This document shows positions 883-57,111 of a stretch of 64,000 nucleotides of DNA, in pieces. Each line of letters begins with the position of its first letter. The first letter of the stretch is position 1. Under the pieces are notes generated by a model. It did no database searches. It was not told the origin of the DNA and saw only the letters and a program-made list of their open reading frames with translations. A program made the translations under genes and the position numbers. This DNA is from an uncultured Alphaproteobacteria bacterium. Lineage in GTDB: Bacteria; Pseudomonadota; Alphaproteobacteria; CAAHEQ01; UBA3637. The stretch covers positions 13,513 through 77,512 of the forward strand of contig CANQUX010000005.1 in the NCBI GenBank assembly GCA_947627155.1, written 5' to 3'.

Positions 883-1038
883 AAACGTACCTTTAATGCA
901 ACGCGGATTCGGGGGTAAAATTACCCTCAAAAATTGTTGAAATAGCCTTTTTATAACTATTTGATATTGCATTTATTTTCCTCTAAACTAAATTTTTTTT
1001 GAAAGAATCAAAAAAAGTGTTGCAAAAATCGTACGTTT
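883..1038 (-). promoter_or_regulatory. Conserved leader segment of paralog A, bounded by 20 bp imperfect inverted repeats. The arms are AAACGTACCTTTAATGCAAC and GTTGCAAAAATCGTACGTTT. This is a candidate invertible or operator-controlled promoter/5'UTR
   Basis: The same about 156 bp IR-flanked segment is present upstream of all four pilin-like paralogs. The arms are almost invariant while the interior diverges. Confidence 0.5.
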
Positions 1039-1333: not shown

Positions 1334-1672
1334 TTATTTTCGACGGAAAGTGCTGTCCCGTGAAACGTGGGATAGCGCGGTGTGCCGAAAATAAGAAACG
1401 GAAAGCAGCAATATTGATATTTTCTCTGATTTTCGGCACATAGCGGGACGTCACTTTTCGCGACGTCCCACACCCGCCGAGAATCAGAGAAAGGAAGCAA
1501 GGCAAACAGATAATTTTTCTCTTTCATGGGTGAAAATCGTGTTGTTAAGCAATTTTCCCCTTTGTCGGTGGGTGGAAAGTAATGAAACACTCCCTCTTTT
1601 CCTCTATCGGCGGGTGTGATGCGCTGCTGAAAGGAGCGCATCGCTATGGGCCGATAGGAGAAAATGAGCGGC
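1334..1672. repeat. GC-rich structured repeat element R, copy 1 (about 339 bp). Candidate ncRNA or regulatory element; the second copy is at 48563..48902
   Basis: About 93% nucleotide identity to copy 2. It contains several perfect or near-perfect hairpins: GGGACGTCACTTTTCGCGACGTCCC, GATGCGCT..AGCGCATC, and TCTCTGATTTTCGG..CCGAGAATCAGAGA. GC content is far above that of the surrounding intergenic DNA. Confidence 0.6.
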
Positions 1673-1685
1673 AGGCGGGCTGGTC

Positions 1686-3098
1686 TCACTCACATAACGC
1701 GGAGTAGGAGGCGTTGCCATTGGTGGTGTAGACGTAACCATAGTCAAGGGAGACGTTGTACGCGAAGCAGGAATCTATTTTATTTTCCAACCAGACTCTG
1801 TCTCTTGTCTTACTGCTAAAATCATCTTTCAAATCCGTCCTTGTCTGACTGTTACATGTGCCAAGCCCCACCACACTGCCACACCCGATGCTTGCCCGCG
1901 TTGCTTGCTTCCTTCCTAATGCCTCGCAGAACCGCCCTGCACTCCACCAGTTCATCTCCGTACTTTCTGCATCTTCCGGCCACGCTAATGCAAAGCCGGT
2001 TTTCTTTCCTATTACTTTATCTTTGCTCGCATTCCGGCATTCACTCTTATGAAAGCTATTTCCTCCAAATTTATTAGGGTCAAATTCTTTGCCGTCACCA
2101 CATTGATACCCCCAATACATGTAGCAATACTCTCCCAGCCCGCAATCAGCATTGCTTTCGCATTCTCCGACGCGCTCCTTATCACATCCGCCGTTTTCAA
2201 GTGATGCTTTCCATTCTTTACTTGTGTCACTGCTACAAACGCATTTTCCACCCTCCGGTTTACTGTCTTCCGGACATTCTGTGCATTTAGTGCCGTCCCA
2301 ATATGGTGTAGCAGTGCTGCATACACAGTCTTCGCCATCTTCGCTAAGCTCTGCTCCCGCCGGACAAGCACACTTTCTACCGGTCCATACCTTTCCGCCC
2401 GAACAACCCGCGCAACAGCCGCCGTTACAGGTTTTCTCGGTGTCCTCACAGGTGCATTCGCCCTTATCGTCACTCAACGTTGTACCTCTCGGACATTCTG
2501 CCGGCACGGGGTCATCATCTTGCGGCGCATCGCCTTGTTCCGTGTCTGTTGGCGGATTGCTGCTTCCGCCGCTCACCCCGCCTATATCTTTGGTCGAAAA
2601 GGCGACCATTACTTCATTCGTTTCACCGCAGAAATTATCCTGCTCATCATAATAACTTTTGTCACCTATTTTTATATCAGCCGTATCGTCCATGTTATCT
2701 AACAAGGCTACCAACGGTTTACACACTCCCTCAGGAATGTTTGATAACGTAAACGAATAGCCTTTTTCCGTTTCACCCAATATCTCAATCGGATAAGCTA
2801 TCTCAATGCCATAATTACTGCCAAAATTTAAGTGTTTTTCATCGTCGTATGGCGAGCCGAGCAATAATTCGTCCACCCCGCGCGCAACTTTCATTTTTGC
2901 ATCGGTACGCATCAGGTTAATTTCATTTGCAATCTGATTCGCTTGATATCGATTCATGGCCATTCTGTATCCTGCTATACCGCCAATGCTTAACACCCCG
3001 ATAATAGCCAAAACGCCCAACATTTCAATCATTGAACGGCCTTCTTGAGCTTGATTTTGAACTTGTTTGAACTCTTTTTTCTTTATTTTATTGCTCAT
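1686..3098 (-). CDS. Modular type IV pilin-like protein, paralog B (470 aa). Domains in order: prepilin-type N-terminus, Cys-rich region, C-terminal C-type-lectin-like domain
   Basis: The N-terminus QEG|RSMIEMLGVLAIIGVLSIGGIAGY has the prepilin peptidase site and Glu+5. Many CxxC/DC motifs follow. The C-terminus MNWWSAGRFCEALG...SALCE is CTLD-like. An RBS and the conserved leader lie upstream. Confidence 0.8.
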   Translation of the reverse strand: MSNKIKKKEFKQVQNQAQEGRSMIEMLGVLAIIGVLSIGGIAGYRMAMNRYQANQIANEINLMRTDAKMKVARGVDELLLGSPYDDEKHLNFGSNYGIEIAYPIEILGETEKGYSFTLSNIPEGVCKPLVALLDNMDDTADIKIGDKSYYDEQDNFCGETNEVMVAFSTKDIGGVSGGSSNPPTDTEQGDAPQDDDPVPAECPRGTTLSDDKGECTCEDTEKTCNGGCCAGCSGGKVWTGRKCACPAGAELSEDGEDCVCSTATPYWDGTKCTECPEDSKPEGGKCVCSSDTSKEWKASLENGGCDKERVGECESNADCGLGEYCYMYWGYQCGDGKEFDPNKFGGNSFHKSECRNASKDKVIGKKTGFALAWPEDAESTEMNWWSAGRFCEALGRKQATRASIGCGSVVGLGTCNSQTRTDLKDDFSSKTRDRVWLENKIDSCFAYNVSLDYGYVYTTNGNASYSALCE

Positions 3099-3131: not shown

Positions 3132-3288
3132 TAAACGTACCTTTAATGCAACGCGGTTTCGGGGATAATTTTACCCCTAAAAAGTGTTGAAACAAGCCTG
3201 TTATAACCCGTTGATATTGCATTAAAATTACCTCCATATAAATTTTTTTTGAAAAAATCAAAAAAAAGTGTTGCAAAAATCGTACGTT
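3132..3288 (-). promoter_or_regulatory. Conserved IR-flanked leader segment of paralog B
   Basis: Arms AAACGTACCTTTAATGCAAC (3132-3151) and GTTGCAAAAATCGTACGTTT (3269-3288). It is homologous to leaders A, C and D. Confidence 0.5.
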
Positions 3289-3303
3289 TTTTTGATGCAT
3301 ATT

Positions 3304-21060: not shown

Positions 21061-23121
21061 ATGTTGGGCGTTGTACAAGGCGAAGACAAAAACAATATTG
21101 ATTTGGGACCTTTAACCGAAGTCATTAAACGGGACGGTGCCCGGCATGCATTTGATGCCTCCAAAATTGCCATGGCCATCACGCGCGCCGGTGAAGCCAC
21201 AAACGAATTCGGCACCGATGAAGCTTGGTTATTAACACGGCAGGTCATTAAGGTTTTAAAACATAAATTTGCTTTCGGACATATTCCCGCCATTGAGCAA
21301 ATTCAAGATGTTGTCGAACAGGTTTTAATTTCCTCGAATTACTATAAAACGGCGCGCTCTTATATTGTTTATCGCGAACAACGGGATAAAATTCGCAAAG
21401 ACAAGCATGCTGCCATTGATGCCATTTCCTCCATTAACGAATATTTGGATCGTTCCGATTGGCGGGTGAATGCCAATGCCAATCAGGGTTATTCGCTCGG
21501 CGGCTTAATTTTAAACGTGTCGGGAAAAGTGGTTGCCAACTATTGGTTAAATCACGTTTACACGCCGGAAATCGGTGAAGCGCACCGCAACGGTGATTAT
21601 CACATTCACGATTTGGATATGTTATCGGGTTATTGTGCCGGCTGGTCGTTACGGGTGTTATTAACGGAAGGATTTAACGGCGTACCGAATAAAGTGGAAT
21701 CAAAACCGCCGCGTCATTTGGTTTCGGCATTCAGTCAAATGATTAACTTTTTAGGAACGCTGCAAAACGAATGGGCAGGCGCACAAGCCTTTTCATCGGC
21801 CGATACTTATTTAGCACCCTTCGTACGCATTGAAAAACTATCGTATGAAGATGTCAAGCAAGCCATGCAATCTTTTATCTTCAACTTAAACGTGCCGTCA
21901 CGCTGGGGAACACAAACACCGTTTACGAATTTAACGTTTGACTGGACGTGTCCCGATGATTTAAAAGATCGTCATCCGATTATCGGCGGTGTGGAACAAG
22001 ATTTTGTTTACGGCGATTTACAAAAAGAAATGGATATGATCAATCGGGCCTTTTTGGAAGTAATGGGTGCCGGTGATGCCAAAGGTCGACCGTTTACATT
22101 CCCGATTCCCACTTATAATATTACCGATGAGTTTCCGTGGGATTCGCCCAACACCGAATATTTGTTTGAAATGACGGCAAAATACGGCCTGCCTTATTTT
22201 TCAAACTATTTAAATTCCGATATGAAGCCGAGTGACATTCGTTCCATGTGCTGCCGGTTACGGTTAGACTTAACCGAATTGAAAAAACGGGGCGGAGGTT
22301 TATTCGGTTCGGCCGAACAAACGGGATCCATCGGCGTTGTCACCATTAACTGCGCCCGACTGGGTTATTTATTCAAAGGACAGAAAGAAGCGTTATATAA
22401 ACGGTTGGACGAATTATTGGATTTAGCCAAAACATCGTTGGAAATTAAACGGAAAACCATTTCCATGCATATGGACAGAGGGTTATATCCCTATACGCGG
22501 CGGTATTTGGGAACCTTCCGCAACCACTTTTCAACCATCGGTGTGAACGGTATCAATGAAATGATTCGTAACTTCACAAATGATATGGAAAACATTACCA
22601 CCGAATACGGTCGTACGTTTGCCAAAGATTTTTTAACGCATATTCGTGAAAAAATGCTGGAATTCCAAGCTGAAACAGGTAATATGTATAATTTGGAAGC
22701 AACCCCGGCGGAAGGAACGACATATCGTTTTGCCAAGGAGGATCAAAAACGGTACAGCGGTATTATTCAAGCCGGCACCAAAGAGGCGCCTTACTATACC
22801 AACTCTTCTCAATTGCCGGCCGGCTTTACGGATGATCCGTTCAAAGCACTGGATTATCAGGATGACTTACAAACGCAATATACCGGCGGCACCGTTTTAC
22901 ACTTATACATGAGTGAACGCATTTCATCGGCATCAGCTTGTAAAGCGCTGATTCGGCGTGTTCTGGAAAATTATCGGTTACCTTATGTATCGGTCACACC
23001 GGTTTATTCCATTTGCCCGAAACACGGCTACATTGCCGGCGAACACAAATACTGCCCCCTCTGCGATCAGGAATTGATTGAGAAAAAACGCAAAGAATTG
23101 GAAGCGGCAGGTAACTTTTAA
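21061..23121 (+). CDS. nrdD: Anaerobic ribonucleoside-triphosphate reductase (class III) large polypeptide. It ends after the Zn-ribbon and lacks the glycyl-radical motif
   Basis: Class III RNR core, plus a C-terminal CxxC...CxxC ribbon (ICPKHGY...CPLC). Confidence 0.9.
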   Translation: MLGVVQGEDKNNIDLGPLTEVIKRDGARHAFDASKIAMAITRAGEATNEFGTDEAWLLTRQVIKVLKHKFAFGHIPAIEQIQDVVEQVLISSNYYKTARSYIVYREQRDKIRKDKHAAIDAISSINEYLDRSDWRVNANANQGYSLGGLILNVSGKVVANYWLNHVYTPEIGEAHRNGDYHIHDLDMLSGYCAGWSLRVLLTEGFNGVPNKVESKPPRHLVSAFSQMINFLGTLQNEWAGAQAFSSADTYLAPFVRIEKLSYEDVKQAMQSFIFNLNVPSRWGTQTPFTNLTFDWTCPDDLKDRHPIIGGVEQDFVYGDLQKEMDMINRAFLEVMGAGDAKGRPFTFPIPTYNITDEFPWDSPNTEYLFEMTAKYGLPYFSNYLNSDMKPSDIRSMCCRLRLDLTELKKRGGGLFGSAEQTGSIGVVTINCARLGYLFKGQKEALYKRLDELLDLAKTSLEIKRKTISMHMDRGLYPYTRRYLGTFRNHFSTIGVNGINEMIRNFTNDMENITTEYGRTFAKDFLTHIREKMLEFQAETGNMYNLEATPAEGTTYRFAKEDQKRYSGIIQAGTKEAPYYTNSSQLPAGFTDDPFKALDYQDDLQTQYTGGTVLHLYMSERISSASACKALIRRVLENYRLPYVSVTPVYSICPKHGYIAGEHKYCPLCDQELIEKKRKELEAAGNF

Positions 23122-23288
23122 AACAGGGAGAAAACCATGAGTCAAAAACCTCAACAAACAAAAAAGAAAATCTCAACGCAAAAGCCGTTTGTTTGGCTCC
23201 CTCGTTCCGAAAAGAAAGAAAAGGGACTTCGGCAATTGTCGTTTGATGATTACTTGAAAAAAACAAACCAACATACGAAAGGATAACC

Positions 23289-23477
23289 ATGACAGATACC
23301 GAAATTTTAAAAAACCACGAACAAGAACGTCAACCCGTCGAATGCTGGACACGCGTAATGGGTTACTTCCGTCCGTACAGTCAATTCAATAAAGGGAAAA
23401 AATCGGAATTCAACGAACGCCAATGGTTCCTTGAAGAAAAATGCAATTGTGCCCGTACAACCGAAAAAGCTGCTTAA
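23289..23477 (+). CDS. Small protein carrying an NrdD-type glycyl-radical motif; candidate stand-alone radical domain
   Basis: TRVMGYFRPYSQFNKGKKSEFNERQ resembles the NrdD C-terminal RVCGY...N.GK..EF region. It lies between nrdD and nrdG. Confidence 0.55.
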   Translation: MTDTEILKNHEQERQPVECWTRVMGYFRPYSQFNKGKKSEFNERQWFLEEKCNCARTTEKAA

Positions 23478-23489
23478 TCGGAGTTTATC

Positions 23490-24179
23490 ATGTTAACGCC
23501 GGCCGGATTGGTTCCCTTCACCACCATTGATTTTCCGAACCGTCTGGCCGCCGTTATTTTTTTTCAGGGATGTCCGCTCAGATGTCCCTTTTGTCATAAT
23601 CCGAATTTGCAACCGGCCCATGCGCAAAGCACAACCGATTGGGAGGAAATCATTTCTTTTTTAAAATCCCGTCAAAAGCAGCTGGACGGCGTTGTTTTCA
23701 GTGGCGGCGAACCTTTAATGCAGCCGGATTTAAAAAAAGGCATGCAAACAATTAAAGATATAGGCTTTCAAGTTGCCATTCATACCAGCGGTGTTTTTCC
23801 CGATAAGTTTGCCGAAGTGTTACCGCTCATTGATTGGGTCGGGTTAGATATTAAAGCGCCATGGGAAAAATATGCCCTGCTGACGGGGCGCGCCGATATA
23901 ACGGCAGCGGTACAAAAAAGTTTACGTCTTGTGTTGCAATCACAAACGGATTATGAAGTTCGCACCACTTTGGATCCCCGATATTTAACCGTTGATGATG
24001 TTTATCATCTGGCCGATGAATTAACGGCCGAAAAGGTGCAAACTTACACATTGCAAAAATATCGCACGTTTGATACGGATCAAAATCCGCCGCAACAAAG
24101 TCAAATCGATTCGTTTTTCAAAGATACCGCCTTAATGACTTATTTACAAAATCATTTTTTGCACTTTACCTGTCGATAA
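23490..24179 (+). CDS. nrdG: Anaerobic ribonucleotide reductase activating protein (radical SAM)
   Basis: Radical SAM motif CPLRCPFCHN; located downstream of nrdD. Confidence 0.85.
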   Translation: MLTPAGLVPFTTIDFPNRLAAVIFFQGCPLRCPFCHNPNLQPAHAQSTTDWEEIISFLKSRQKQLDGVVFSGGEPLMQPDLKKGMQTIKDIGFQVAIHTSGVFPDKFAEVLPLIDWVGLDIKAPWEKYALLTGRADITAAVQKSLRLVLQSQTDYEVRTTLDPRYLTVDDVYHLADELTAEKVQTYTLQKYRTFDTDQNPPQQSQIDSFFKDTALMTYLQNHFLHFTCR

Positions 24180-25833: not shown

Positions 25834-27273
25834 ATGGAAGAACAGACACAAATTATCGGCGAGTGGGAAAAAGTATACGGTGCTTTGGAAAAAGAAGTCA
25901 ATAACCGATTGGTTATGAAGTGGCTGAAACGCAGTATTCCCGAAAAAACCGATTCGAATCGCGTTTGTTTGGCCTTTCCGTCTCCCTGTATCGAAGAGGT
26001 GATTAAGCGCAATTATGCACATCAGATTTTAAATATTTGGCAACGGGAAAATCCGGCCGTCACTGCTCTTGATTTTAAAGTTTTATCACCTCAAAATAAA
26101 AATAACAGCGCTCCTTTACCGGCCGCCGACTCTTGTGAATTGCAACCGATTGTCGATTCTGCCGAATCACAACCGATTGTTGTCGATAAAATGAAGCGTT
26201 ACGGCTTCTCAAAGGTTGAAATTGATGTAACGAGCGATAGCGAAACAATTCCCTGTTATTTAGACGAATCGCATACGTTTGATCAATTTGTTGTCGGGCA
26301 ATCAAATGTTTTTGCTTATGAAGCCGCACGCCGGGTGGCCGAAGATGAAAAAGATGTGTTTAATCCGCTTTACATTCATGCGCCGGTGGGATTGGGCAAA
26401 ACGCATTTATTACATGCCGTTGCCTGGCGCGTAAAAGAACTGTATCCCGATAAAAACGTGCTTTATATTTCCTCGGAACAATTTTTCCAATATTTTTTAA
26501 AGGCGTTACGAAACAAAAAAACCGATTCGTTTCGTGATTTATTCCGCGCGGTCGATATTTTAATGATTGATGATATTCAATTTATCTGCGGGAAAAAAGC
26601 AACGCAGGAAGAGTTTTTTCACACGTTTAATCAACTGATTGCCTGCGGGAAAAAAGTGATTTTATCATCCGATTCGCACCCCATGGATCTGGTTGAAATG
26701 CAAGAACGCTTAAAAACCCGTATTGCCCAAGGGCTGGTTGTTCATATTGAGCCGACAACTTATGAATTGCGACTGGGTATTTTACGGGAAAAAGGAAAGC
26801 ATTTACCCGTTCAAATCAGTGACGAAGTTTTAGATTTTCTGGCAAAAAACATTACCGGCAGCATTCGGGAATTGGAAGGGGCATTAAAGCGATTGACGGC
26901 ACATGCGCAAATTATGGGAACGCCCATCAATCCGCAAACCACCCGAAGCGTTTTAAAAGATATGTTGCAAGTTTATGATCGGCAATTTTCAGTAAACGAA
27001 ATTCAACGTGTTACGGCCGATTACTATCATTTAAAATTATCTGACATACAATCATCCCGTCGAGATCGAAAAATTGCGCGGCCGCGGCAAATGGCCATGT
27101 ATTTGGCCAAAACGGCAACGGCTTTATCGCTTCCCGATATCGGTCGGCGATTCGGGCGTGATCACACTACGGTCATGCATGCCGTTAAAACCATTGAAGA
27201 TTTAATGAGTCGGGATAAGCAATTATGCCAAGATAAAGAAAACATTTTAATGCGGTTAAGGGAGGGTGTATGA
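25834..27273 (+). CDS. dnaA: Chromosomal replication initiator protein DnaA
   Basis: AAA+ Walker A GLGKTHLLHAV and a C-terminal DnaA-box-binding domain (MAMYLAK...HTTVMHA). Confidence 0.95.
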   Translation: MEEQTQIIGEWEKVYGALEKEVNNRLVMKWLKRSIPEKTDSNRVCLAFPSPCIEEVIKRNYAHQILNIWQRENPAVTALDFKVLSPQNKNNSAPLPAADSCELQPIVDSAESQPIVVDKMKRYGFSKVEIDVTSDSETIPCYLDESHTFDQFVVGQSNVFAYEAARRVAEDEKDVFNPLYIHAPVGLGKTHLLHAVAWRVKELYPDKNVLYISSEQFFQYFLKALRNKKTDSFRDLFRAVDILMIDDIQFICGKKATQEEFFHTFNQLIACGKKVILSSDSHPMDLVEMQERLKTRIAQGLVVHIEPTTYELRLGILREKGKHLPVQISDEVLDFLAKNITGSIRELEGALKRLTAHAQIMGTPINPQTTRSVLKDMLQVYDRQFSVNEIQRVTADYYHLKLSDIQSSRRDRKIARPRQMAMYLAKTATALSLPDIGRRFGRDHTTVMHAVKTIEDLMSRDKQLCQDKENILMRLREGV

Positions 27274-27990: not shown

Positions 27991-28064
27991 GCGAGTGTAG
28001 CTCAATGGCAGAGCGGAAGCTTCCCAAGCTTAAGACGAGGGTTCGATTCCCTTCACTCGCTCCA
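27991..28064 (+). tRNA. tRNA-Gly (anticodon CCC), 74 nt with CCA encoded
   Basis: Manual cloverleaf: acceptor stem GCGAGTG/CACTCGC, anticodon loop TTCCCAA, T-loop TTCGATT. Confidence 0.85.
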
Positions 28065-28150
28065 TTTTTTTGAATAAGATATCATGCGAAAGTATGTAAA
28101 AATGCAGGGGCATCTACTTTGTTTTGAAATATTTTAAAGCGGAGTTAAAC

Positions 28151-28858
28151 ATGATATATGGCTACATTCGTGTTTCTTCCGACAAGCAAACGTTGGAAAA
28201 TCAAAAATTTGAAATTCGCAAATTTGCTTTACGCAACAGCATTCACATTGATCGCTGGGTTGAAGAAACCATTTCCACGCGCAAACCGCTTGAAAAGCGC
28301 AAATTAAGTCGATTATTAAATATCTTAACGGCAAATGATATTTTAATTACGTCCGAAATATCACGACTGGGGCGTTCATTATTGGAAGTAATGGGTATTT
28401 TACAAAATTGTTTATTAAAGGGGTGTCAAATCTGGACGATTAAAGAAAACTATCGGCTGGGTGCTGATTTACAATCCAAAGTAATGGCATTTGCGTTTGG
28501 TTTATCGGCAGAAATCGAGCGACAACTTATTTCCGATCGCACGCGGTCATCATTGGAAAATTTAAAGGCAAAAGGTATTAAGCTGGGGCGGCCGGTGGGT
28601 GCAAACGGTGCTGTTTTAAAATTACCGGAGAGTTTGGAAAAAATATTTCTTCTGATTAAAAACGGTTGTTCACAAGCCGAAGTTTCACGCATTATGGGTG
28701 TTCACAAGTCAACTATTTGTCGTTTGGTTAAGAAAAATTATCCGGAACTGATGGAAGAGGAAGAAGATTTATTGTTTACGTTGGAATCGCCACTCTCCGT
28801 TCCGTCCGATTTAATGCTTGATTCAACAACTTATCCGCCGTCTACAAACGAAAATTAA
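28151..28858 (+). CDS. Serine recombinase of the resolvase/invertase family
   Basis: N-terminal catalytic motif YGYIRVSSDKQ and a C-terminal HTH region. RBS-supported ATG at 28151. Confidence 0.85.
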   Translation: MIYGYIRVSSDKQTLENQKFEIRKFALRNSIHIDRWVEETISTRKPLEKRKLSRLLNILTANDILITSEISRLGRSLLEVMGILQNCLLKGCQIWTIKENYRLGADLQSKVMAFAFGLSAEIERQLISDRTRSSLENLKAKGIKLGRPVGANGAVLKLPESLEKIFLLIKNGCSQAEVSRIMGVHKSTICRLVKKNYPELMEEEEDLLFTLESPLSVPSDLMLDSTTYPPSTNEN

Positions 28859-30054
28859 AAATGCTTCGGCAACCGGCGTTGACGAGGAGTAACAATACCT
28901 AACTCCATCAATCGTTTCATATATAATGACCCGCGAATAAATAAAATTTTTTCAGGCGGAATTAAAAAATACAAAGAAGAAGTAAATCCGCCGACCCAAT
29001 CGGGTTCATGACCGGTTAAGAAAAACGCTTCAACAGGAATTTGAGAATTAAGCGTATCATATTTCGGAAGAGCTTTTTGCAACAAATGACATTCTTTTTT
29101 GGCACTATAAGAAGGATGGCATTTTAAAAACACACGCGCAGGAATATTTTTGAAAAAAGAGAAAACACTTATTTCCTGATTGACTGATTTTTCATTTCCG
29201 AAAAAATATCCGGCAGTTAAAAACACCTTTTTTTGCGGCGTTGATAAAGCTTGAACGGTTACCGAATCAATTTCAAAAAAATGCTCCAACAACTTTTTTT
29301 CATGCGGAGCAAGCCGAGCAGCTTCCGATTTTAAACTGATATTTTTAATATTCTTACGACCTATCCAATTGACAAACGTTTTTAATTTTTTATCTTTAAT
29401 AATTTCATCAGCACGACACAAATGGTAGGTAGCCGGCACCAACTTTCCGATAGAAGCTTTCCAAAATGCCACATCTTCATTTTTAATTTCACTGAAAAAA
29501 TTCGGATTTTTTTCAAAATTCCGTAAAATTTTAACATCGGGTTTAAACCGCATCCAAAAACCATATTCATTCCCGATAACATTACAAGCGCCGTCTTCAT
29601 ATAAATGAATATGCTCAATTCGAGAGGGGAGTTCTTTAATCAGCCGTAACAAGAAATAGCGCGTTTGATTGATATTTGAATAAACTTCAAATTGAGCTTT
29701 CGGATATCGATCGGCAATTCTTTTTAATGTTTTGATAAAAGAAGCCGAATGATACCCCCATAAACCTTCCGACGCCGCCAGATTAACTTCAACGGCATTT
29801 ATTTTGGATAAATCAAAAATTCTTGCGCGATTGGGGTAGCGATGAAAGAAAAAAACTTTTAATTCATTTTTTTCATGAGCCGCTTTAATAAATTCCACAC
29901 TTTCCCAAAGAACAGGTGAAGTAGCATAAACTTCAAAAAAAACTTTAATTTTACGAATATGTTGGGGGGGGGGGGTATTGTATAAGCATAAGAGAAGAAC
30001 GGTCAAAACCGTTAAAATAAATGTCTTTAAAAAAACTCTAACGGAATGTTTCAC
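28855..30054 (-). CDS. Membrane-anchored hypothetical protein with a C12 tract in codons 26-30. Possibly a glycosyltransferase-like LOS-modifying enzyme (uncertain); candidate for phase variation
   Basis: N-terminal signal-anchor. The poly-C tract encodes TPPPQ. No confident family assignment was possible by eye. Confidence 0.5.
   Translation of the reverse strand: MKHSVRVFLKTFILTVLTVLLLCLYNTPPPQHIRKIKVFFEVYATSPVLWESVEFIKAAHEKNELKVFFFHRYPNRARIFDLSKINAVEVNLAASEGLWGYHSASFIKTLKRIADRYPKAQFEVYSNINQTRYFLLRLIKELPSRIEHIHLYEDGACNVIGNEYGFWMRFKPDVKILRNFEKNPNFFSEIKNEDVAFWKASIGKLVPATYHLCRADEIIKDKKLKTFVNWIGRKNIKNISLKSEAARLAPHEKKLLEHFFEIDSVTVQALSTPQKKVFLTAGYFFGNEKSVNQEISVFSFFKNIPARVFLKCHPSYSAKKECHLLQKALPKYDTLNSQIPVEAFFLTGHEPDWVGGFTSSLYFLIPPEKILFIRGSLYMKRLMELGIVTPRQRRLPKHF
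29964..29975. repeat. Homopolymeric G12 tract (C12 on the coding strand) inside the 5' end of the 28855..30054 CDS
   Basis: Counted directly in the sequence. Confidence 0.9.
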
Positions 30055-30520
30055 GCGAGTAAGCTCCGTAAAAATCTTCCTTATTTAACCAACCTTCATA
30101 TTCTCTGTCATTAAAGATGAAAGAAACACGACATGCATCAACTTCACATTCTTCCAACTTTCCCAACGCGCCTTTTTGAACAAAGGCCACCGGTGAAGCT
30201 GTTGAATTAATGTTTTTGCGCAGAACGGAATCTTCCGTCAGAATAACATACCGTCCGGAACTGAGCATGCGACGATGAACCCAACCAACAGTTCCGTCTA
30301 CTTCGCGAATTTGACGCCATAATTCATATTCATCAATCACTTCAACGGGATAATTTTTCATACGATAAACAAATTTAATCGGATAACGATTTCCGGGACC
30401 CGTTCTTAAATTCACATCCGCTCGACGAAATGAAACGAATCGGGGAATAGCCAATTCCTGCGCCGAAACAGCACCGGCCAGACAAAGAACGCCGAAACAG
30501 AGCCAATATTTAACTTTCAT
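30038..30520 (-). CDS. Secreted SH3b-like domain protein
   Basis: Signal peptide MKVKYWLCFGVLCLAGAVSA. Start placed at the ATG at 30520. Confidence 0.5.
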   Translation of the reverse strand: MKVKYWLCFGVLCLAGAVSAQELAIPRFVSFRRADVNLRTGPGNRYPIKFVYRMKNYPVEVIDEYELWRQIREVDGTVGWVHRRMLSSGRYVILTEDSVLRKNINSTASPVAFVQKGALGKLEECEVDACRVSFIFNDREYEGWLNKEDFYGAYSRETFR

Positions 30521-31046
30521 TTGAAGCTTTGACCCTTTCGCGAACGGTTTTGACGGTACGTTTATGAATGGCTGCATTTTTTTGAGATCCCTCTTCCGTA
30601 TTTTCCTCATCGGTATCTAATGTTAATTCATGGGTTTCCTGCACCATTTGACCGGTAATTTCATTCCAACAGACCTGATAAACGGGAATAATCAGCATTT
30701 GAGCAAATTCTTCCCCGCGACGTAAAATTAACTGCCGACGAGAAGCATTTTGCACCAAAACAAAAAGAGCTTCTCTGTCAGCGGGATTAAGAATTTGCGG
30801 TGCATCAAGCACAATTAACCCCTTTTCAACAGCAATTTGAGGCAGCGACACAATTTGCCCGCACAAACCGTCGGGAACACCGAATCCGAAACCGACCGGA
30901 ACCAATGCGCGCTCGTGGGGATCCAATTTCAGCACGGTCGGAACAGCAGCACGCAACACCAAGCCGACATGATGCCGAGATGTGTAGGACGGCAAAGGAA
31001 AATCAACGCCGTCAGGTGTGCGAATGATGTGAATTTTCGGAATCAT
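30510..31046 (-). CDS. dut: dUTP diphosphatase (divergent, with an acidic C-terminal extension)
   Basis: DFPLPSYTSRHHVGLVLRA aligns with Dut motif 1-2 (EFPLPTYATSGSAGLDLRA). Confidence 0.75.
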   Translation of the reverse strand: MIPKIHIIRTPDGVDFPLPSYTSRHHVGLVLRAAVPTVLKLDPHERALVPVGFGFGVPDGLCGQIVSLPQIAVEKGLIVLDAPQILNPADREALFVLVQNASRRQLILRRGEEFAQMLIIPVYQVCWNEITGQMVQETHELTLDTDEENTEEGSQKNAAIHKRTVKTVRERVKASNES

Positions 31047-48342: not shown

Positions 48343-48497
48343 AAACGTACCTTTAATGCAACGCGGATTCCGGGGCAAAATTACCTTTAAAAAGCAAAAA
48401 ATCACCCTTAAAAAACAATCGAAAAATCAATGAATTCCGGCCAAAATAAATTTTTTTTGAAAAAATCAAAAAAAAGTGTTGCAAAAATCGTACGTTT
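48343..48497 (-). promoter_or_regulatory. Conserved IR-flanked leader segment of paralog C
   Basis: Arms at 48343-48362 and 48478-48497. Confidence 0.5.
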
Positions 48498-48562
48498 AAT
48501 TGAGGAAAGAGAAGCAGGGAAAATATGTTTGTTTTATTTGGTATTCGTTGGGCTACTCTCTG

Positions 48563-48902
48563 TTATTTTCGGCGGGAAGTGCTGTCCCGTGAAACGTGGG
48601 ACAGCGCGGTGTGCCGAAAATAAGAAACGGAAAGCGGCAATATTGATATTTTCTCTGATTCTCGACACATAGCAGGACGTCACTTTTCACGACGTCCCAC
48701 ACCCGCCGAGAATCAGAGAAAGGAAGCAAGGCCAACAGATAACTTTTCTCTTTCATGGTTGAAAATTGTGTTGTTAACGAACTTCCCCCTTTTGTCGGTG
48801 GGTGGAAAGTAATGAAACACTTCCTCTTTTCCTCTATCGGCGGATGTGATGCGCTGCTGAAAGGAGCGCATCGCTATGGGCCGATAGGGGGAAAGTGAGC
48901 GG
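48563..48902. repeat. GC-rich structured repeat element R, copy 2; lies between the divergent leaders of paralogs C and D
   Basis: About 93% identical to 1334..1672, with a compensatory change in the TCTCTGATT(C/T)TCG(A/G) stem. Confidence 0.6.
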
Positions 48903-48929: not shown

Positions 48930-49085
48930 AAACGTACGATTTTTGCAACACTTTTTTTTGATTTTTTCAAAAAAAATTTATTTTGGACGGAATTCATTGA
49001 TTTTTCGAGTGTTTTTTAAGGGTGAATTTTGGCAGTTTGAAGGCAAATTTTGCCCCCGAAACTGCGTTGCATTAAAGGTACGTTT
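48930..49085 (+). promoter_or_regulatory. Conserved IR-flanked leader segment of paralog D
   Basis: Arms AAACGTACGATTTTTGCAAC (48930-48949) and GTTGCATTAAAGGTACGTTT (49066-49085). Confidence 0.5.
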
Positions 49086-49121: not shown

Positions 49122-50669
49122 ATGACAAGACAATTCAAAAAAAATCAATTAAAACAATTTCAAAATCAAGCGCAACAAGGCCGGTCAATGGTTGAAATGC
49201 TCGGCGTACTGGCTATTATTGCTATTTTGTCAATCGGCGGGATTGTCGGCTATAAATTAGCCATGAATTATTATCAGGCCGATCAGATTGCGAATGAAAT
49301 TAACTTAATGCGTAACGATTTAAAGGTTAAATACGCTTTGGGAAATGAAGAATTGTTGCTCGGGGATCCTTATGATGATACACCAGAAAATGAACATTAC
49401 CGCGGGCATTTATCAACACAATATGATCGTTATCCCGTTGATTATGATTGCATCATCAGAGGTAATAAAGAGAGTAAAAATGAGCTTTATAATTGCCGCG
49501 AAGCAGATGCTTATTATATTGCCGTGGGGAACATTTCAAAGGGTGTTTGTAAACCGCTTACAACGCTTGTTGCCGCCATGGACGGCCGTTTGGAAATGGA
49601 TATCAATGGTTTGTCCTACACAGGAGGTGATTCATGTACCAGTGATGAAAATAATGAAATTTATGTTGAATTCGATGCGGCGGATGTAAACGGCAATTAC
49701 GATTCGGGGCGCCCAAAAGGCTGGTGTGCCAAAGATGACGATTGCGAAGGATTATCAACCCCTGTTTGCGATAAGGAAAACAATACGTGTGTGGAATGTA
49801 CGGAAAATACGCATTGCGCCTCAAATATATGTCGGAAAGATCACACTTGCGGTGAATGCACAAAAGATTCGGATTGTGTCAATCCGCGCCCGATATGCGA
49901 TACGGAATCGGCAACATGTATGAGATGTGCTGTTGACGATGAATGTCAAAGAGCCAACGTGAATAAACCTGTTTGCGACATGGGTACCGGCGCTTGTTGC
50001 GATGATCCGCTCATGACATGGAATGGCAGCGAATGCGTTTGCCCCGAAGATTATGCCAAATCGGAAACCAGTTCCGGTCAAGCTATTTGTTTACCTTATT
50101 GCGAGGAAAATAATATCGGTATTATTTTAATGACGGATACTTCCGGCTCAATGACTCTGCAAATGTTTGAAAATGCCAACAAAGCCAAAGAGGCGCTTCA
50201 TATTCCGGAAGATATTCCGTCAGCCGTTTATTGGTGTGCTGCTTGTTATGATGCACATTGTTTGAAAAACACGCCATCCGGTCCGGTAAATGAACATCTT
50301 TCTTACGGAAAACATTCTGTCAGTGAAATTCGCGCTGCTCTTCAAACAAATGTATCGGACAGGCTCAAAGTAACCGGTGATTTTGGTGGCAGTATTTATA
50401 AAATTATGGATTATTGCTCAACCATTAAAGAAAAACTCATTATTATTGTTTGGTGGGATAATCAAAAACCGGCCGATACCGGTAATGATATACCTGCATT
50501 TTCAAAATTGAAAGAAAAATGCCCCGAAACGGTTATTTATAATGTATCACCGAATGCCAAATCATTTGCAAGCGCTGATAAATCTTTTGATTTAAATGAC
50601 ATTACAACGGAATATACGGAAGTTTTAAATCAATTCATTCAAAAAGAAGGTTGTGTTGAGCGAGAATAA
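49122..50669 (+). CDS. Modular type IV pilin-like protein, paralog D (515 aa). Domains in order: prepilin N-terminus, Cys-rich repeats, C-terminal vWA-like domain
   Basis: MTRQFKKNQLKQFQNQAQQG|RSMVEMLG...; vWA MIDAS-like motif IILMTDTSGSMT. Confidence 0.8.
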   Translation: MTRQFKKNQLKQFQNQAQQGRSMVEMLGVLAIIAILSIGGIVGYKLAMNYYQADQIANEINLMRNDLKVKYALGNEELLLGDPYDDTPENEHYRGHLSTQYDRYPVDYDCIIRGNKESKNELYNCREADAYYIAVGNISKGVCKPLTTLVAAMDGRLEMDINGLSYTGGDSCTSDENNEIYVEFDAADVNGNYDSGRPKGWCAKDDDCEGLSTPVCDKENNTCVECTENTHCASNICRKDHTCGECTKDSDCVNPRPICDTESATCMRCAVDDECQRANVNKPVCDMGTGACCDDPLMTWNGSECVCPEDYAKSETSSGQAICLPYCEENNIGIILMTDTSGSMTLQMFENANKAKEALHIPEDIPSAVYWCAACYDAHCLKNTPSGPVNEHLSYGKHSVSEIRAALQTNVSDRLKVTGDFGGSIYKIMDYCSTIKEKLIIIVWWDNQKPADTGNDIPAFSKLKEKCPETVIYNVSPNAKSFASADKSFDLNDITTEYTEVLNQFIQKEGCVERE

Positions 50670-50695: not shown

Positions 50696-50783
50696 TGGCG
50701 GAGAGTACAGGACTCGAACCTGTGCATCCTTTTAGGGGATGACGGATTAGCAATCCGCTGCATTACCGCTCTGCCAACTCTCC
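50696..50783 (-). tRNA. tRNA-Ser (anticodon GCU), class II with a long variable arm, 88 nt
   Basis: Manual cloverleaf: acceptor stem GGAGAGT/ACTCTCC, anticodon loop TTGCTAA, variable arm CATCC..GGATG, T-loop TTCGAGT. Confidence 0.85.
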
Positions 50784-55466: not shown

Positions 55467-56339
55467 TTATTTTTTTAAGGCGCCGCCGACACTGATTCGT
55501 TGTAAAATAACATCTAATTGATCGGCAGATTGACAATCAATAATTACTTTTCCCGTTAATCCCGCCCAATGAATGGAAATTTTGGTATTCAACAATGCGC
55601 TGAATTGAGCTGCTAACGATTCAATATGTTTATTTTTTTCTTTTTGAACCGGTTGTGCTTTATTTTTTTGAGTTGCCAATTTTTCGGTTTGACGCACATT
55701 TAATCCCTTTTTAATAACCTCGCGAGATAGGATAACGGGATTATCGGCAGCCAATAAAGCACGCGCATGTCCGACCGTAATTTCCTTTTTTTCCAACAAT
55801 GTTTTAATTTCTTCGGGTAAATCCAATAAACGCATCATATTTGCCAAATAACTTCGGCTTTTACCGATCACACGGGATAAATCTTCCTGTTTATAATGAA
55901 ATTCTTTAATTAAACGTTTATAAGCTTCGGCTTCCTCCAACGGATTTAAATCCTCCCGTTGTAAATTTTCAATAATGGCAACTTCCAATGCTTCTTTATC
56001 GGTCAAATTTTTAACAATAACGGGAATTTTGGTTAATCCCGCCATTTTGGAAGCCCGAAATCGACGCTCTCCGGCAATAATTTCATATAAATTATTTCGA
56101 GCGCTTTTTCGCACCAATAAAGGTTGTAACACACCTTTTTCTTTAATGGAAACAACTAAATCCGCCAATGCTTCGGTGGTAAAAACACGACGCGGTTGAA
56201 AAGAACCGGCAACCAGTTCAGAAATATCTTTATATAAAACAGTATTAACGGAATCATTTTGAACAACCGGTGTTTCCTCAAACTCTTCATCTCCCATCAA
56301 TGTTTGTAAACCCCGCCCTAATCCTAAATTTTTATCCAT
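55467..56339 (-). CDS. parB: Chromosome partitioning protein ParB
   Basis: ParB box GERRFRA and an HTH. Confidence 0.9.
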   Translation of the reverse strand: MDKNLGLGRGLQTLMGDEEFEETPVVQNDSVNTVLYKDISELVAGSFQPRRVFTTEALADLVVSIKEKGVLQPLLVRKSARNNLYEIIAGERRFRASKMAGLTKIPVIVKNLTDKEALEVAIIENLQREDLNPLEEAEAYKRLIKEFHYKQEDLSRVIGKSRSYLANMMRLLDLPEEIKTLLEKKEITVGHARALLAADNPVILSREVIKKGLNVRQTEKLATQKNKAQPVQKEKNKHIESLAAQFSALLNTKISIHWAGLTGKVIIDCQSADQLDVILQRISVGGALKK

Positions 56340-57111
56340 TTAATAACTCCTTTTCTCTGTTTAAAATTTCTGCCGCCAATCGAATATAACTTTTGGCTCC
56401 CATACTTTTCACATCGTATATAATAACCGGTTTTCCATGCGACGGCGCTTCCGGAATACGAACGTTTCGGGGAATAATCGTATCATAAACATAGTCTTTA
56501 AAATAAGACTTCACATCAGCCACAATTGATTTTGATAAATTGGAACGACCGTCAAACATTGTCATGACAATTCCGTGTAATGCCAATTTTGCATTAAAGT
56601 TTTGTTGCACTTTTTGAATGGTTTTCATTAAATCGGCAACACCTTCCAAAGCTAAATATTCGCATTGAACCGGTATAATCACATAATCGGAAGCCACAAG
56701 CGCATTTAACGTTAATAAACCGACGGCGGGCGGACAATCAATAAAAACATAATCAAAATCTTTAATATCTTTTAAAGCTTTTTTCAAAAAGAATTGCGGC
56801 TTTTTTTTATCGGCCAATTCAATATCAATACCTAATAATTCTTTGCCGGAAGGCATAATATATAGTTGGGGAATTTGTGTTTCGACAATCACATCCGATA
56901 AAGAATTATGTCCCGTGATAAAGGTGTAAGAATTCAATCCTTTTTTTCTTTTAGAACCGACACTGACAGTTGCATTTCCCTGCGGATCCAAATCAATAAT
57001 CAAAACTTTCTTTCCGATAGCAGCTAAAGCCGTTGCCAAATTGACGGTTGTTGTTGTTTTTCCAACCCCTCCTTTTTGATTTGAAACTGAAAAAATACGT
57101 GGTTTAATCAT
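56332..57111 (-). CDS. parA: Chromosome partitioning ATPase ParA
   Basis: Deviant Walker A NQKGGVGKTTT; start MIKPRIF. Confidence 0.9.
   Translation of the reverse strand: MIKPRIFSVSNQKGGVGKTTTTVNLATALAAIGKKVLIIDLDPQGNATVSVGSKRKKGLNSYTFITGHNSLSDVIVETQIPQLYIMPSGKELLGIDIELADKKKPQFFLKKALKDIKDFDYVFIDCPPAVGLLTLNALVASDYVIIPVQCEYLALEGVADLMKTIQKVQQNFNAKLALHGIVMTMFDGRSNLSKSIVADVKSYFKDYVYDTIIPRNVRIPEAPSHGKPVIIYDVKSMGAKSYIRLAAEILNREKELLNG

What the first reader, a model, noticed from the sequence alone, without database searches (positions are those of the whole stretch)
27991..30054. tRNA-Gly, then a serine recombinase, then a convergent gene with a C12 tract (candidate phase-variable surface-modification locus)
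A resolvase/invertase-type serine recombinase is encoded directly 3' of tRNA-Gly(CCC). tRNA genes are classic integration sites for mobile elements.

The recombinase's stop overlaps the stop of a convergent 399-aa membrane-anchored protein. That protein has 12 consecutive C residues on its coding strand at codons 26-30, encoding TPPPQ.

Homopolymeric tracts of this length near a gene's 5' end undergo slipped-strand mispairing, which switches the reading frame ON and OFF.

The protein's size and composition are reminiscent of phase-variable LOS glycosyl- or sialyl-transferases of mucosal pathogens. That specific family assignment is unverified.

This gene is co-oriented downstream of the dut and SH3b genes.

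The recombinase could be an integrase remnant. It could also be a DNA invertase acting in trans, for example on the IR-flanked pilin leaders.
Basis: partly seen in the sequence, partly recalled or inferred. Interest (0 to 1): 0.6.

Follow-up and report, generated by a model that had tools for sequence, protein, structure and literature searches.

The report
Phase-variable sialyltransferase beside a master invertase
An uncultured gut alphaproteobacterium carries a sialyltransferase-like gene that a slippery run of 12 C's switches on and off, next to a conserved Bacteroides-type DNA invertase that probably flips small promoter cassettes in front of pilin-like adhesin genes; both are known kinds of switch in a new host lineage.

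Summary
tRNA-Gly(CCC) lies at 27991-28064. A 235-aa serine recombinase lies at 28151-28858. A convergent 399-aa gene lies at 28855-30054, with an uninterrupted C12 run (29964-29975; codons 27-31, not 26-30).

The 399-aa protein is a GT80 (PM0188-type) sialyltransferase homologue. It passes the Pfam cut-off, has every catalytic motif, and its model matches only GT80 structures at the top.

The tract is hypervariable. Assemblies otherwise identical over 12-21 kb carry C11 or C12, and called proteins imply C8 and C10. Only 3n lengths join the membrane anchor to the catalytic domain. A sister species also varies. Relatives with interrupted proline codons are always in frame.

The recombinase is not a tRNA-integrated element. 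There is no att repeat, and dnaA-hsp20-DUF1150-tRNA-recombinase-sialyltransferase-SH3-dut is syntenic in at least five other lineages. It scores 265.5 bits on NCBI's Mpi master-invertase model (cut-off 272).

The window holds four inverted-repeat cassettes of about 155 bp. Their core, AAACGTAC, resembles Bacteroides Mpi sites, and each sits just upstream of a type-IV-pilin-like gene. A fifth cassette elsewhere lies in the opposite orientation before a glycosyltransferase gene.

Inversion, reversible switching and sialyl transfer were not shown. This is a new member of known kinds.

The parts
27991..28064 (+). tRNA-Gly (anticodon CCC). It is a conserved neighbour of the recombinase, not an integration scar.
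   Evidence: ARAGORN and Rfam at 68 bits. There is no second copy of its 3' end in the window. The same tRNA sits at the same place in L009, L010 and L011.
28151..28858 (+). Small serine recombinase of the Mpi (master DNA invertase) type, 235 aa. It carries a C-terminal tail of about 37 aa that the roughly 200-aa relatives lack.
   Evidence: Pfam Resolvase E 3.5e-30 plus HTH_38. NCBIfam NF009949 gives 265.5 bits over model positions 1-198 of 203, against a cut-off of 272. R7, S9, R72 and R75 align with catalytic residues of gamma-delta resolvase. Orthologues share 81-96% identity in syntenic loci.
28855..30054 (-). GT80-family (PM0188-like) sialyltransferase homologue, 399 aa, with an N-terminal membrane anchor. 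It is the last gene of a dut-SH3b-ST string.
   Evidence: PF11477 scores 35.3 bits against a cut-off of 25. A family profile against the PDB gives E 5e-31, to GT80 sialyltransferases only. The AF2 model has pLDDT 85, and the top 24 Foldseek PDB hits are all GT80. E153-D154-G155, H313-P314, E342 and S359-S360 are invariant.
29964..29975 (-). Uninterrupted C12 tract on the coding strand, codons 27-31 (TPPPQ), between the anchor and the catalytic domain. This is the slippage switch.
   Evidence: It is the only G/C run of 8 or more in the window. Lengths of 11 and 12 are read directly in other assemblies, and 8 and 10 are implied by called proteins and contig lengths. Frame consequences are tabulated.
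29980..30036 (-). Coding region of the N-terminal hydrophobic anchor (residues 7-25). It joins the catalytic domain only when the tract length is 3n.
   Evidence: Highest 19-residue hydropathy window in the protein, mean 2.3. Modelled as helix 3-26. The N-terminus is conserved in all homologues.
29987..29989 (-). Internal ATG, 14 nt upstream of the tract. At C5, C8, C11 or C14 it opens an anchorless ORF of 375-378 aa. No Shine-Dalgarno motif precedes it, so it is probably only a gene-caller start.
   Evidence: Frame table and upstream sequence. Gene callers report 377-aa and 376-aa products beginning MLIQYPP.
30038..31046 (-). SH3b-domain gene (30038-30520/30610) and a divergent dut-like gene (30510-31046). 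Both are co-oriented and overlapping, and lie upstream of the sialyltransferase gene.
   Evidence: Pfam SH3_4/SH3_3 and dUTPase. The same order is seen in L001, L002, L009-L011, L031 and L033.
883..1038 (-). Candidate inverton 1. The repeats are AAACGTACCTTTAATGCAAC (gene-proximal) and AAACGTACGATTTTTGCAAC (distal), around 116 bp. It lies upstream of pilin-like gene 1 (<1-846, - strand).
3133..3289 (-). Candidate inverton 2, upstream of pilin-like gene 2 (1686-3098, - strand, 470 aa).
48343..48497 (-). Candidate inverton 3, upstream of pilin-like gene 3 (46759-48306, - strand, 515 aa).
48930..49085 (+). Candidate inverton 4, upstream of pilin-like gene 4 (49122-50669, + strand, 515 aa), which is divergent from gene 3.

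Best explanation
The locus holds two separate phase-variation devices on the core chromosome of an uncultured gut alphaproteobacterium, near the replication origin.

**1. The sialyltransferase switch.** The 399-aa gene encodes a membrane-anchored GT80 glycosyltransferase, most likely a sialyl- or other nonulosonic-acid transferase that decorates a surface glycoconjugate. The C12 run lies between the anchor and the catalytic domain. Slipped-strand mispairing during replication changes its length.
- At 3n lengths (C12, C9, C15), translation from the GTG start yields the full anchored enzyme. This is the ON state.
- At other lengths, translation ends after 32-65 codons. This is the OFF state.
- 3n changes only add or remove a proline in a linker.

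**2. The recombinase.** It is not an integrase of a tRNA-inserted element. It is a vertically inherited Mpi-type small serine invertase that acts in trans. Its likely substrates are cassettes of about 155 bp bounded by 20-bp inverted repeats sharing the core AAACGTAC. These sit 35-45 nt upstream of type-IV-pilin-like adhesin genes and, in a related contig, upstream of a glycosyltransferase gene. Flipping a cassette would change what lies upstream of a fixed -10/SD region and so switch those genes.

**Shown here:** family and fold of both proteins, the tract polymorphism and its frame consequences, the conserved synteny, the repeats and their two orientations.

**Inferred:** reversibility of the tract switch, the sugar transferred, the recombinase-cassette pairing, and which cassette orientation is ON.
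For: **Sialyltransferase identity**
- PF11477 scores above its gathering cut-off.
- phmmer and a family profile against the PDB hit only GT80 sialyltransferases, at E 2e-8 and 5e-31.
- The D/E-D/E-G and HP motifs that define bacterial GT52/GT80 sialyltransferases are present. So are the equivalents of PmST1 Asp141, His311, Glu338 and Ser355/356 (PMC4202792). They are E153-D154-G155, H313-P314, E342 and S359-S360, all invariant in 11 homologues.
- The AF2 model has pLDDT 85. The top 24 Foldseek PDB hits are all GT80 (E about 1e-16, TM 0.65-0.73). The next GT-B hits are at 1e-5.

**Tract variability**
- L001 differs from the window over 20.7 kb only by one tract base and 2 SNPs. L003 differs over 11.8 kb only by one tract base.
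- Direct reads of the tract give C11 in L001, L003 and L008, and C12 in the window, L002 and L006. Three contigs end at or inside the tract.
- Cluster members of 399, 377, 376 and 347 aa come from contigs of 45167, 45164 and 45166 nt. These imply C12, C11, C8 and C10.
- The sister species (L009/P0004 cluster) has C11 and in-frame forms.
- Internal control: relatives with interrupted codons are 399 aa in every sequence recovered, four contigs plus the P0002 representative. These are ACC CCT CCC CCT CAG in L031/L032 and TCC CCG TTG CCG in L033/L034.

**Recombinase**
- NF009949 (Mpi family) scores 265.5 bits at full length. The next-best family scores 27.7 bits.
- Relatives score 255-274 bits around the 272 cut-off, and NCBI names one of them Mpi family.
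- Synteny with dnaA, hsp20, DUF1150, tRNA-Gly, ST, SH3 and dut holds in L009-L011. L031 and L033 show the same protein-gene order; the tRNA was not scanned there. Recombinase identity of 81-96% tracks DnaA at 81-96%.

**Cassettes**
- Eight sites form four inverted pairs in the window, where essentially none (about 0.1 or fewer) would be expected by chance.
- The sites and the adjacent 30-45 nt are invariant across the four cassettes, while the middles vary.
- The core resembles the B. fragilis Mpi repeat ARACGTTCGTN (8 of 10) and the B. intestinalis repeat GTTCGTTTAA (9 of 10) (PMC8375218).
- The L025 cassette has swapped arms and a reversed interior, but the same gene-proximal flank AATTTATACAAT. 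It lies 33 nt before a glycosyltransferase gene.
Against: - No read-level data were available. Homopolymer length calls in low-coverage Illumina assemblies (2.5-9x) can be wrong, and library PCR can slip, so part of the tract variation could be technical.
- No sialic-acid synthesis or activation gene (neuA, neuB, neuC) was seen among the window genes that were annotated, so the donor sugar is unverified.
- Sequence identity to characterised GT80 enzymes is only about 20%.
- All nine pilin cassettes recovered are in one orientation. No single locus was found in two states. Contigs break at the repeats.
- The oppositely oriented cassette is at a different locus, so a fixed arrangement is not excluded.
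- The recombinase falls 6.5 bits below NCBI's Mpi cut-off.
- No clear promoter lies inside the cassette. A TTGCAW-17-TATGCT/TATACA promoter-like arrangement spans the proximal site in either orientation, so the ON/OFF logic is unclear.
Confidence: 0.68

Rival explanations
1. The recombinase marks a mobile element or integrase remnant inserted at tRNA-Gly, and the sialyltransferase gene is its cargo.
For: The recombinase starts 87 nt after a tRNA gene. The sialyltransferase region has somewhat lower G+C, 0.35 against about 0.41 for the window. The sialyltransferase also diverges faster than its neighbours, 52-80% against 81-96% identity.
Against: No repeat of the tRNA 3' end occurs anywhere in 64 kb. 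The order dnaA-hsp20-DUF1150-tRNA-recombinase-ST-SH3-dut is kept in L009, L010 and L011. L031 and L033 keep the same protein-gene order; the tRNA was not scanned there. Contig-length coincidences suggest the linkage holds in two more lineages. The tRNA-recombinase spacer is alignable in four species. The protein is a 235-aa invertase/resolvase type, not a large serine or tyrosine integrase. The flanking genes are housekeeping genes.
Confidence: 0.04
2. The tract-length differences are sequencing or assembly artefacts, or the gene is simply decaying. The C run only encodes a proline linker and has no switching role.
For: Assemblies have low coverage, 2.5-9x by contig names. G/C homopolymers are error-prone on Illumina platforms (general knowledge). 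Three contigs stop at the tract.
Against: Differences of -2 and -4 bases (C10, C8) exceed typical miscalls. In the near-clonal contigs L001 and L003 the tract is the only indel in 12-21 kb, and the more diverged L002 carries other indels but an in-frame C12. In-frame alleles persist in both species that have the tract, with no other disabling mutation. Lineages with interrupted proline codons show no frameshift. The uninterrupted run is kept at the same codon in two species whose proteins are 74% identical.
Confidence: 0.15
3. The recombinase is a resolvase/invertase with some other target not in the window. The AAACGTAC repeats are operator or promoter elements of the pilin gene family that do not invert.
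For: All nine pilin cassettes recovered are in the same orientation. A promoter-like -35/-10 pair spans the proximal repeat in either orientation. No same-locus inversion was found.
Against: The repeats are inverted pairs with an identical 8-bp core and arm-specific differences. In L025 the arms and interior are exchanged exactly at that core, while the outer flank stays homologous. The core resembles published Mpi-type repeats. An Mpi-type recombinase is encoded in the same genome, and no other recombinase was noted in the window genes examined.
Confidence: 0.25

Closest known systems
GT80 bacterial sialyltransferases: Pasteurella multocida PmST1/PM0188 and the Photobacterium alpha-2,3/2,6-sialyltransferases (PDB 2EX0, 2C84, 4R9V, 2Z4T, 2ZWI)
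   Same: Pfam family PF11477. GT-B fold. The D/E-D/E-G and HP motifs. Equivalents of Asp141, His311, Glu338 and Ser355/356. An N-terminal hydrophobic leader or anchor before the catalytic domain.
   Different: Only about 20% identity to these enzymes. The host is an uncultured gut alphaproteobacterium rather than Pasteurellaceae or Vibrionaceae. A hypermutable C tract lies in the linker. Donor and acceptor are untested, and no neu genes lie nearby.
Contingency loci switched by homopolymer slippage in LOS/LPS glycosyltransferase genes: Neisseria lgtA/C/D poly-G, Campylobacter jejuni cstII and other poly-G genes, Helicobacter fucosyltransferases poly-C, and Haemophilus lic3A with a tetranucleotide repeat (from my own knowledge; homopolymer-fragmented Helicobacter GT25 genes are mentioned in PMC3234257)
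   Same: An uninterrupted G/C run in the 5' coding region of a surface-glycan transferase. Length polymorphism between near-identical strains. ON only at 3n lengths.
   Different: The known phase-variable sialyltransferases belong to GT42 or GT52. This one is GT80 and sits in a commensal-type gut lineage. Switching rate and phenotype are unknown.
Bacteroides fragilis Mpi master DNA invertase and its invertible polysaccharide promoters (PMC4747536, PMC8375218, PMC12632263)
   Same: A small serine recombinase matching NCBIfam NF009949 over its full length. One chromosomal gene, with several distant cassettes flanked by inverted repeats in front of surface-structure genes. Repeat core AAACGTAC(G/C) against ARACGTTCGTN and GTTCGTTTAA. 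Cassettes of 150-230 bp.
   Different: The score is just under the family cut-off. A C-terminal tail of about 37 aa is added. The phylum differs. The targets are pilin-like adhesin genes and a glycosyltransferase gene, not capsule operons. No internal promoter was identified. Inversion has not been demonstrated.
E. coli fimS and R64 shufflon pilus switches
   Same: DNA inversion that controls or diversifies pilus proteins.
   Different: Those systems use tyrosine recombinases (FimB/FimE, Rci) encoded next to their target. Here a serine recombinase is encoded 19-27 kb from the cassettes.

Membership tests
GT80 sialyltransferase (Pfam PF11477, PM0188) | Match to the family model above the curated cut-off | tested here: met
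   35.3 bits against a cut-off of 25, covering model positions 7-355 of 390. All 12 homologues carry PF11477.
GT80 sialyltransferase (Pfam PF11477, PM0188) | D/E-D/E-G motif holding the catalytic base (PmST1 Asp141) | tested here: met
   HLYEDG, with E153-D154-G155 invariant in 11 sequences. It aligns to YDDGS of PM0188 and of the Photobacterium enzyme.
GT80 sialyltransferase (Pfam PF11477, PM0188) | HP motif (His311), plus Glu338 and Ser355/Ser356, which bind CMP | tested here: met
   K311-C-H313-P314, E342 and S359-S360 are invariant and aligned to KGHP, FEV and SSLYF.
GT80 sialyltransferase (Pfam PF11477, PM0188) | GT-B fold most similar to solved GT80 enzymes | tested here: met
   AF2 pLDDT 85.2 and pTM 0.82. 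Foldseek PDB ranks 1-24 are all GT80, at E 5e-16 to 1e-14. Other GT-B folds begin at E 1e-5.
GT80 sialyltransferase (Pfam PF11477, PM0188) | Transfers sialic acid from CMP-sialic acid, with a donor supply (neuA/B/C or scavenging) present | not testable with these tools
No neu genes were found among the window genes examined. The rest of the genome could not be queried.
Slipped-strand contingency locus | Uninterrupted repeat tract inside or just upstream of the coding region, longer than chance allows | tested here: met
   C12 at codons 27-31. It is the only G/C run of 8 or more in 64 kb.
Slipped-strand contingency locus | Tract length differs between otherwise near-identical genomes, with frame consequences | tested here: met
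   C8, C10, C11 and C12 occur in the same lineage. In near-clonal contigs the tract is the only indel in 12-21 kb. ON only at 3n.
Slipped-strand contingency locus | Relatives without the uninterrupted tract do not show the frameshifts (control) | tested here: met
   L031/L032 and L033/L034 have interrupted codons. All members of those clusters are 399 aa.
Slipped-strand contingency locus | Reversible, high-frequency switching within one population, with a phenotype | not testable with these tools
   This needs per-read counts or colony assays. Only consensus assemblies were available.
Mpi-family master DNA invertase (NCBIfam NF009949) | Score at or above the curated equivalog cut-off | tested here: inconclusive
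   265.5 bits against 272, over model positions 1-198 of 203. Orthologues and relatives score 255-274, and two of them pass. The next-best family scores 27.7 bits.
Mpi-family master DNA invertase (NCBIfam NF009949) | Serine-recombinase catalytic residues and a C-terminal HTH | tested here: met
   R7, S9, R72 and R75 align to R8, S10, R68 and R71 of gamma-delta resolvase. HTH_38 covers residues 163-196.
Mpi-family master DNA invertase (NCBIfam NF009949) | Several dispersed promoter-region cassettes flanked by inverted repeats that share one consensus | tested here: met
   Four cassettes in the window and more in L025, L027 and L029, with identical 20-bp repeats. The core is close to published Mpi repeats.
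Mpi-family master DNA invertase (NCBIfam NF009949) | Those cassettes invert, and inversion depends on this recombinase | tested here: inconclusive
   The only evidence is comparative. One cassette (L025) has exactly the flipped configuration relative to a homologous flank. No same-locus two-state evidence was found, and dependence on the recombinase is untestable here.
tRNA-integrated mobile element | Direct repeat of the tRNA 3' end (attL/attR) bounding the insert | tested here: not met
   There is a single match, the tRNA itself, allowing up to 3 mismatches in 64 kb.
tRNA-integrated mobile element | Presence/absence polymorphism between related genomes | tested here: not met
   The recombinase and sialyltransferase are present in the same gene order in every related locus recovered.

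The most novel reading that the evidence does not exclude
Uncultured gut Alphaproteobacteria run a Bacteroides-style global inverton network. One conserved Mpi-type invertase flips a family of about 155-bp cassettes in front of many large, cysteine-rich type-IVb-pilin-like adhesin genes and glycosyltransferase genes. On top of this sits a slippage-switched GT80 sialyltransferase that gives host-like sialylation. A bolder sub-reading is that the tract acts as a three-state switch. It would give an anchored enzyme at 3n, an anchorless 375-378-aa form from the internal ATG at 3n+2, and nothing at 3n+1.
Probability: 0.35. Interest if true: 0.6.

Novelty: new member of a known kind. Interest (0 to 1): 0.45.

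Why it matters
Phase-variable sialylation and Mpi-driven surface switching are textbook immune-evasion and phage-evasion strategies. They are described mainly in mucosal pathogens and in Bacteroides.

Finding both in a little-known, uncultured lineage of animal-gut Alphaproteobacteria suggests these commensals also vary their surface. It adds a GT80 enzyme to the list of slippage-controlled sialyltransferases.

It also gives concrete sequence targets, one tract and a 20-bp repeat motif, that can be scored directly in existing metagenomic reads.

Tried and rejected
- **JGI metagenome scans.** One used a two-site cassette pattern and one a junction pattern covering both orientations. The lineage seems absent from that collection.
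- **Same-locus inversions.** I looked in other assemblies through neighbouring proteins. The contigs either match the window orientation (L019, L022-L024, L023 across cassette 1) or break at the distal repeat. That break is explained by about 50 nt shared between cassettes, not by inversion.
- **L028 versus L027.** Their cassette interiors differ, but this is strain divergence (97.5% overall), not an exchange between cassettes.
- **Failed look-ups.** Pilin gene 4 and P0144 returned nothing. L026 (P0154) has no cassette.
- **Exact B. fragilis motif.** ACGTWCGT occurs no more often than chance and not at the cassettes. A first site pattern was mis-spaced and gave no hits.
- **Literature.** The original Mpi paper is not held, and string searches for the consensus failed. 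The consensus was taken from PMC8375218 instead.
- **Promoter scan.** It gave no more hits than shuffled sequence, and none inside the cassettes.
- **Weak repeat inside the sialyltransferase gene.** A 31-nt inverted repeat at 29775-30044 is only 71% complementary and was dismissed as chance.
- **Other scans.** Rfam found only the two tRNAs, and no other notable tandem repeat was found.
Full report
**What is there**

ARAGORN and Rfam place tRNA-Gly(CCC) at 27991-28064. A + strand ORF follows. From its ATG at 28151 to 28858 it encodes a 235-aa protein with a Resolvase catalytic domain (E 3.5e-30) and a C-terminal helix-turn-helix. R7, S9, R72 and R75 align with R8, S10, R68 and R71 of gamma-delta resolvase.

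A 399-aa ORF converges on it at 28855-30054 on the - strand. It has a GTG start with GGAG 9 nt upstream. The two stop codons overlap by 2 nt.

On the coding strand the gene carries 12 uninterrupted C's (window 29964-29975). This is the only G or C run of 8 or more in the window. It lies directly after a strongly hydrophobic N-terminal segment, residues 7-25. The gene is the last of three co-oriented, overlapping genes: dut-like, SH3b, then this gene.

**What the 399-aa protein is**

- It matches Pfam PF11477 (sialyltransferase PM0188, CAZy GT80) above the curated cut-off, 35.3 against 25 bits.
- phmmer against the PDB returns only GT80 sialyltransferases.
- A profile of 11 homologues raises this to E 5e-31.
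- The two motifs that define bacterial GT52/GT80 sialyltransferases are D/E-D/E-G and HP. The PmST1 catalytic and CMP-binding residues are Asp141, His311, Glu338 and Ser355/356 (PMC4202792). All have invariant counterparts here: E153-D154-G155, H313-P314, E342 and S359-S360.
- An AlphaFold model (pLDDT 85, pTM 0.82) gives GT80 structures as its top 24 Foldseek PDB matches, at about 1e-16. Other GT-B enzymes follow ten orders of magnitude behind.

Family membership is therefore established. The sugar actually transferred is not. No neu genes were seen among the window genes examined. The window is otherwise origin-proximal housekeeping DNA: dnaA, parAB, gidB, nusA-infB, atp genes and lpxC.

**Is the tract a switch?**

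Independent metagenome assemblies carry the identical recombinase gene.

- The tract reads C12 in the window, L002 and L006, and C11 in L001, L003 and L008. Three further contigs stop at or inside the tract.
- L001 differs from the window over 20.7 kb only by the missing tract base and two SNPs. L003 differs over 11.8 kb only by the tract base.
- The 90%-identity protein cluster holds products of 399, 377 (MLIQYPPPQ...), 376 (MLIQYPPQ...) and 347 aa. They come from contigs of 45167, 45164 and 45166 nt. These correspond to C12, C11, C8 and C10 in the frame table.
- Translation from the GTG start gives the full protein only at 3n lengths. Other lengths stop after 32-65 codons.
- At 3n+2 an internal ATG opens an anchorless ORF of 375-378 aa. 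This is what gene callers report. It has no Shine-Dalgarno motif, so I treat it as OFF.
- A sister species (protein 74% identical) has the same uninterrupted tract. It shows both C11 (L009, frameshifted) and in-frame forms.
- Closer or equally close relatives encode the same or a similar linker with interrupted codons: ACC CCT CCC CCT CAG, or TCC CCG TTG CCG. All their recovered sequences are 399 aa.

Variation is thus tied to the uninterrupted tract, as expected for a contingency locus. The main caveat is that these are low-coverage consensus assemblies. Per-read heterogeneity and reversibility were not observed.

**What the recombinase is**

The mobile-element idea fails.

- No copy of the tRNA 3' end occurs elsewhere in the window.
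- The order dnaA-hsp20-DUF1150-tRNA-Gly-recombinase-sialyltransferase-SH3b-dut is kept in three other GTDB species of uncultured animal-gut Alphaproteobacteria.
- The same protein-gene order is kept in two more metagenomic lineages, where the tRNA was not scanned.
- Recombinase identity of 81-96% parallels DnaA.
- The tRNA-recombinase spacer is alignable across four species.

The best family match by far is NCBIfam NF009949, 'master DNA invertase Mpi family'. It scores 265.5 bits at full length against a cut-off of 272, and the next family scores 27.7 bits. Relatives score 255-274 bits, and NCBI already names one alphaproteobacterial relative Mpi family.

**Candidate substrates**

- The window contains eight copies of a 20-bp site, arranged as four inverted pairs: 883-1038, 3133-3289, 48343-48497 and 48930-49085.
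- Each pair encloses 115-117 bp and lies 35-45 nt upstream of the start codon of a gene. Each gene product has a type-IV prepilin-like N-terminus (G|RSMIEML...) and a large cysteine-rich C-terminal part. Homologues of that N-terminus carry the Pfam Bundlin and PilS_N domains.
- The gene-proximal site is always AAACGTACCTTTAATGCAAC, and the distal site is AAACGTACGATTTTTGCAAC.
- The sites and the 30-45 nt next to them are invariant among the four cassettes, while the middles vary.
- The core resembles the repeats reported for Mpi-controlled promoters in B. fragilis (ARACGTTCGTN) and for B. intestinalis capsule invertons (GTTCGTTTAA, against GTACGTTTAA here) (PMC8375218).
- One contig, L025, comes from a sample that also holds this strain. 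It carries a cassette whose arms are swapped and whose interior matches the pilin cassettes better in reverse (0.61-0.70 against 0.46-0.59 identity). Its gene-proximal flank (AATTTATACAAT) is the same as in a pilin cassette. It sits 33 nt before a glycosyltransferase gene. That is the configuration an inversion at the AAACGTAC core would produce.
- All nine pilin cassettes recovered are in one orientation. No single locus was seen in two states, because contigs break at the shared repeats. Inversion and the enzyme-substrate pairing therefore remain inferences.
- Which orientation is ON is also unknown. A TTGCAW-17 nt-TATGCT/TATACA arrangement spans the proximal site in both orientations. Flipping would mainly exchange a G+C-rich hairpin-like segment for an A/T-rich segment upstream of it.

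**Comparison and verdict**

The sialyltransferase gene works like the homopolymer-switched LOS glycosyltransferase genes of Neisseria, Campylobacter, Helicobacter and Haemophilus (my own knowledge). By every sequence and fold test it is a GT80 member.

The recombinase works like, and sits at the edge of, the Bacteroides Mpi family (PMC4747536, PMC8375218, PMC12632263).

Both are known kinds of device. The new elements are the host lineage, the GT80-homopolymer combination, and pilin-like adhesin genes as likely Mpi-type targets.

I rate interest as moderate.

Noticed in passing
window 1330-1670 and 48559-48902: A hairpin-rich element of about 344 nt is present twice at 93% identity. One copy lies downstream of pilin-like gene 2. 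The other fills most of the 424-bp gap between divergent cassettes 3 and 4. A related stretch precedes the L025 cassette. It has no Rfam match, and ORFs of 103-132 aa are called across it.
   Followed up: partly
window <1-846, 1686-3098, 46759-48306, 49122-50669: A family of four large genes (470-515 aa). Each has a conserved type-IV prepilin-like N-terminus and a variable, cysteine-rich C-terminal region. None has a Pfam hit. Genes 3 and 4 are divergent, and their 5' regions form a 303-nt inverted repeat that is 91% complementary.
   Followed up: partly
L025 1697-1850 and 1884-2846: A cassette of the same type but in the opposite orientation lies directly upstream of a 320-aa glycosyltransferase gene (Caps_synth/Gly_transf_sug). 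The pilin-like gene before it is split into 253-aa and 217-aa ORFs by a frameshift.
   Followed up: partly
window 40300-46525, with tRNA-Ser at 50696-50783: A TraG/VirD4-type coupling protein (43142-45325) is surrounded by unannotated ORFs, with a dip to 30% G+C at 41-42 kb. The stretch lies between a PBP1 gene on one side and the pilin-like pair with tRNA-Ser on the other. It may be a remnant of a conjugative element.
   Followed up: no
window 30010 and 30036: These two SNPs are the only substitutions between the window and L001 in 20.7 kb. Both fall in the anchor-coding 5' end of the sialyltransferase gene, within 72 nt of the tract. L001 is in the OFF frame.
   Followed up: no
window 28740-28858: The recombinase has an acidic, Pro/Ser-rich C-terminal tail of about 37 aa that the roughly 200-aa Mpi-family relatives lack. 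Tails of similar length occur in the syntenic orthologues (233-241 aa).
   Followed up: no
window 23121-23490: Two tiny ORFs (49 and 62 aa) follow the anaerobic ribonucleotide reductase gene nrdD. The second has its own NRDD Pfam hit. A similar 65-aa ORF occurs in L025. It may be a detached glycyl-radical domain.
   Followed up: no
window 30510-31046: The dut-like gene is divergent. It scores 26.5 bits on Pfam dUTPase and 68.5 bits on NCBIfam against a cut-off of 103. Its C-terminal extension of about 45 aa overlaps the longest reading of the SH3b ORF.
   Followed up: no
window 25834-27273 and 55467-57712: dnaA, parB, parA and gidB all lie within 32 kb of each other, so the window is close to the chromosomal replication origin.
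   Followed up: no
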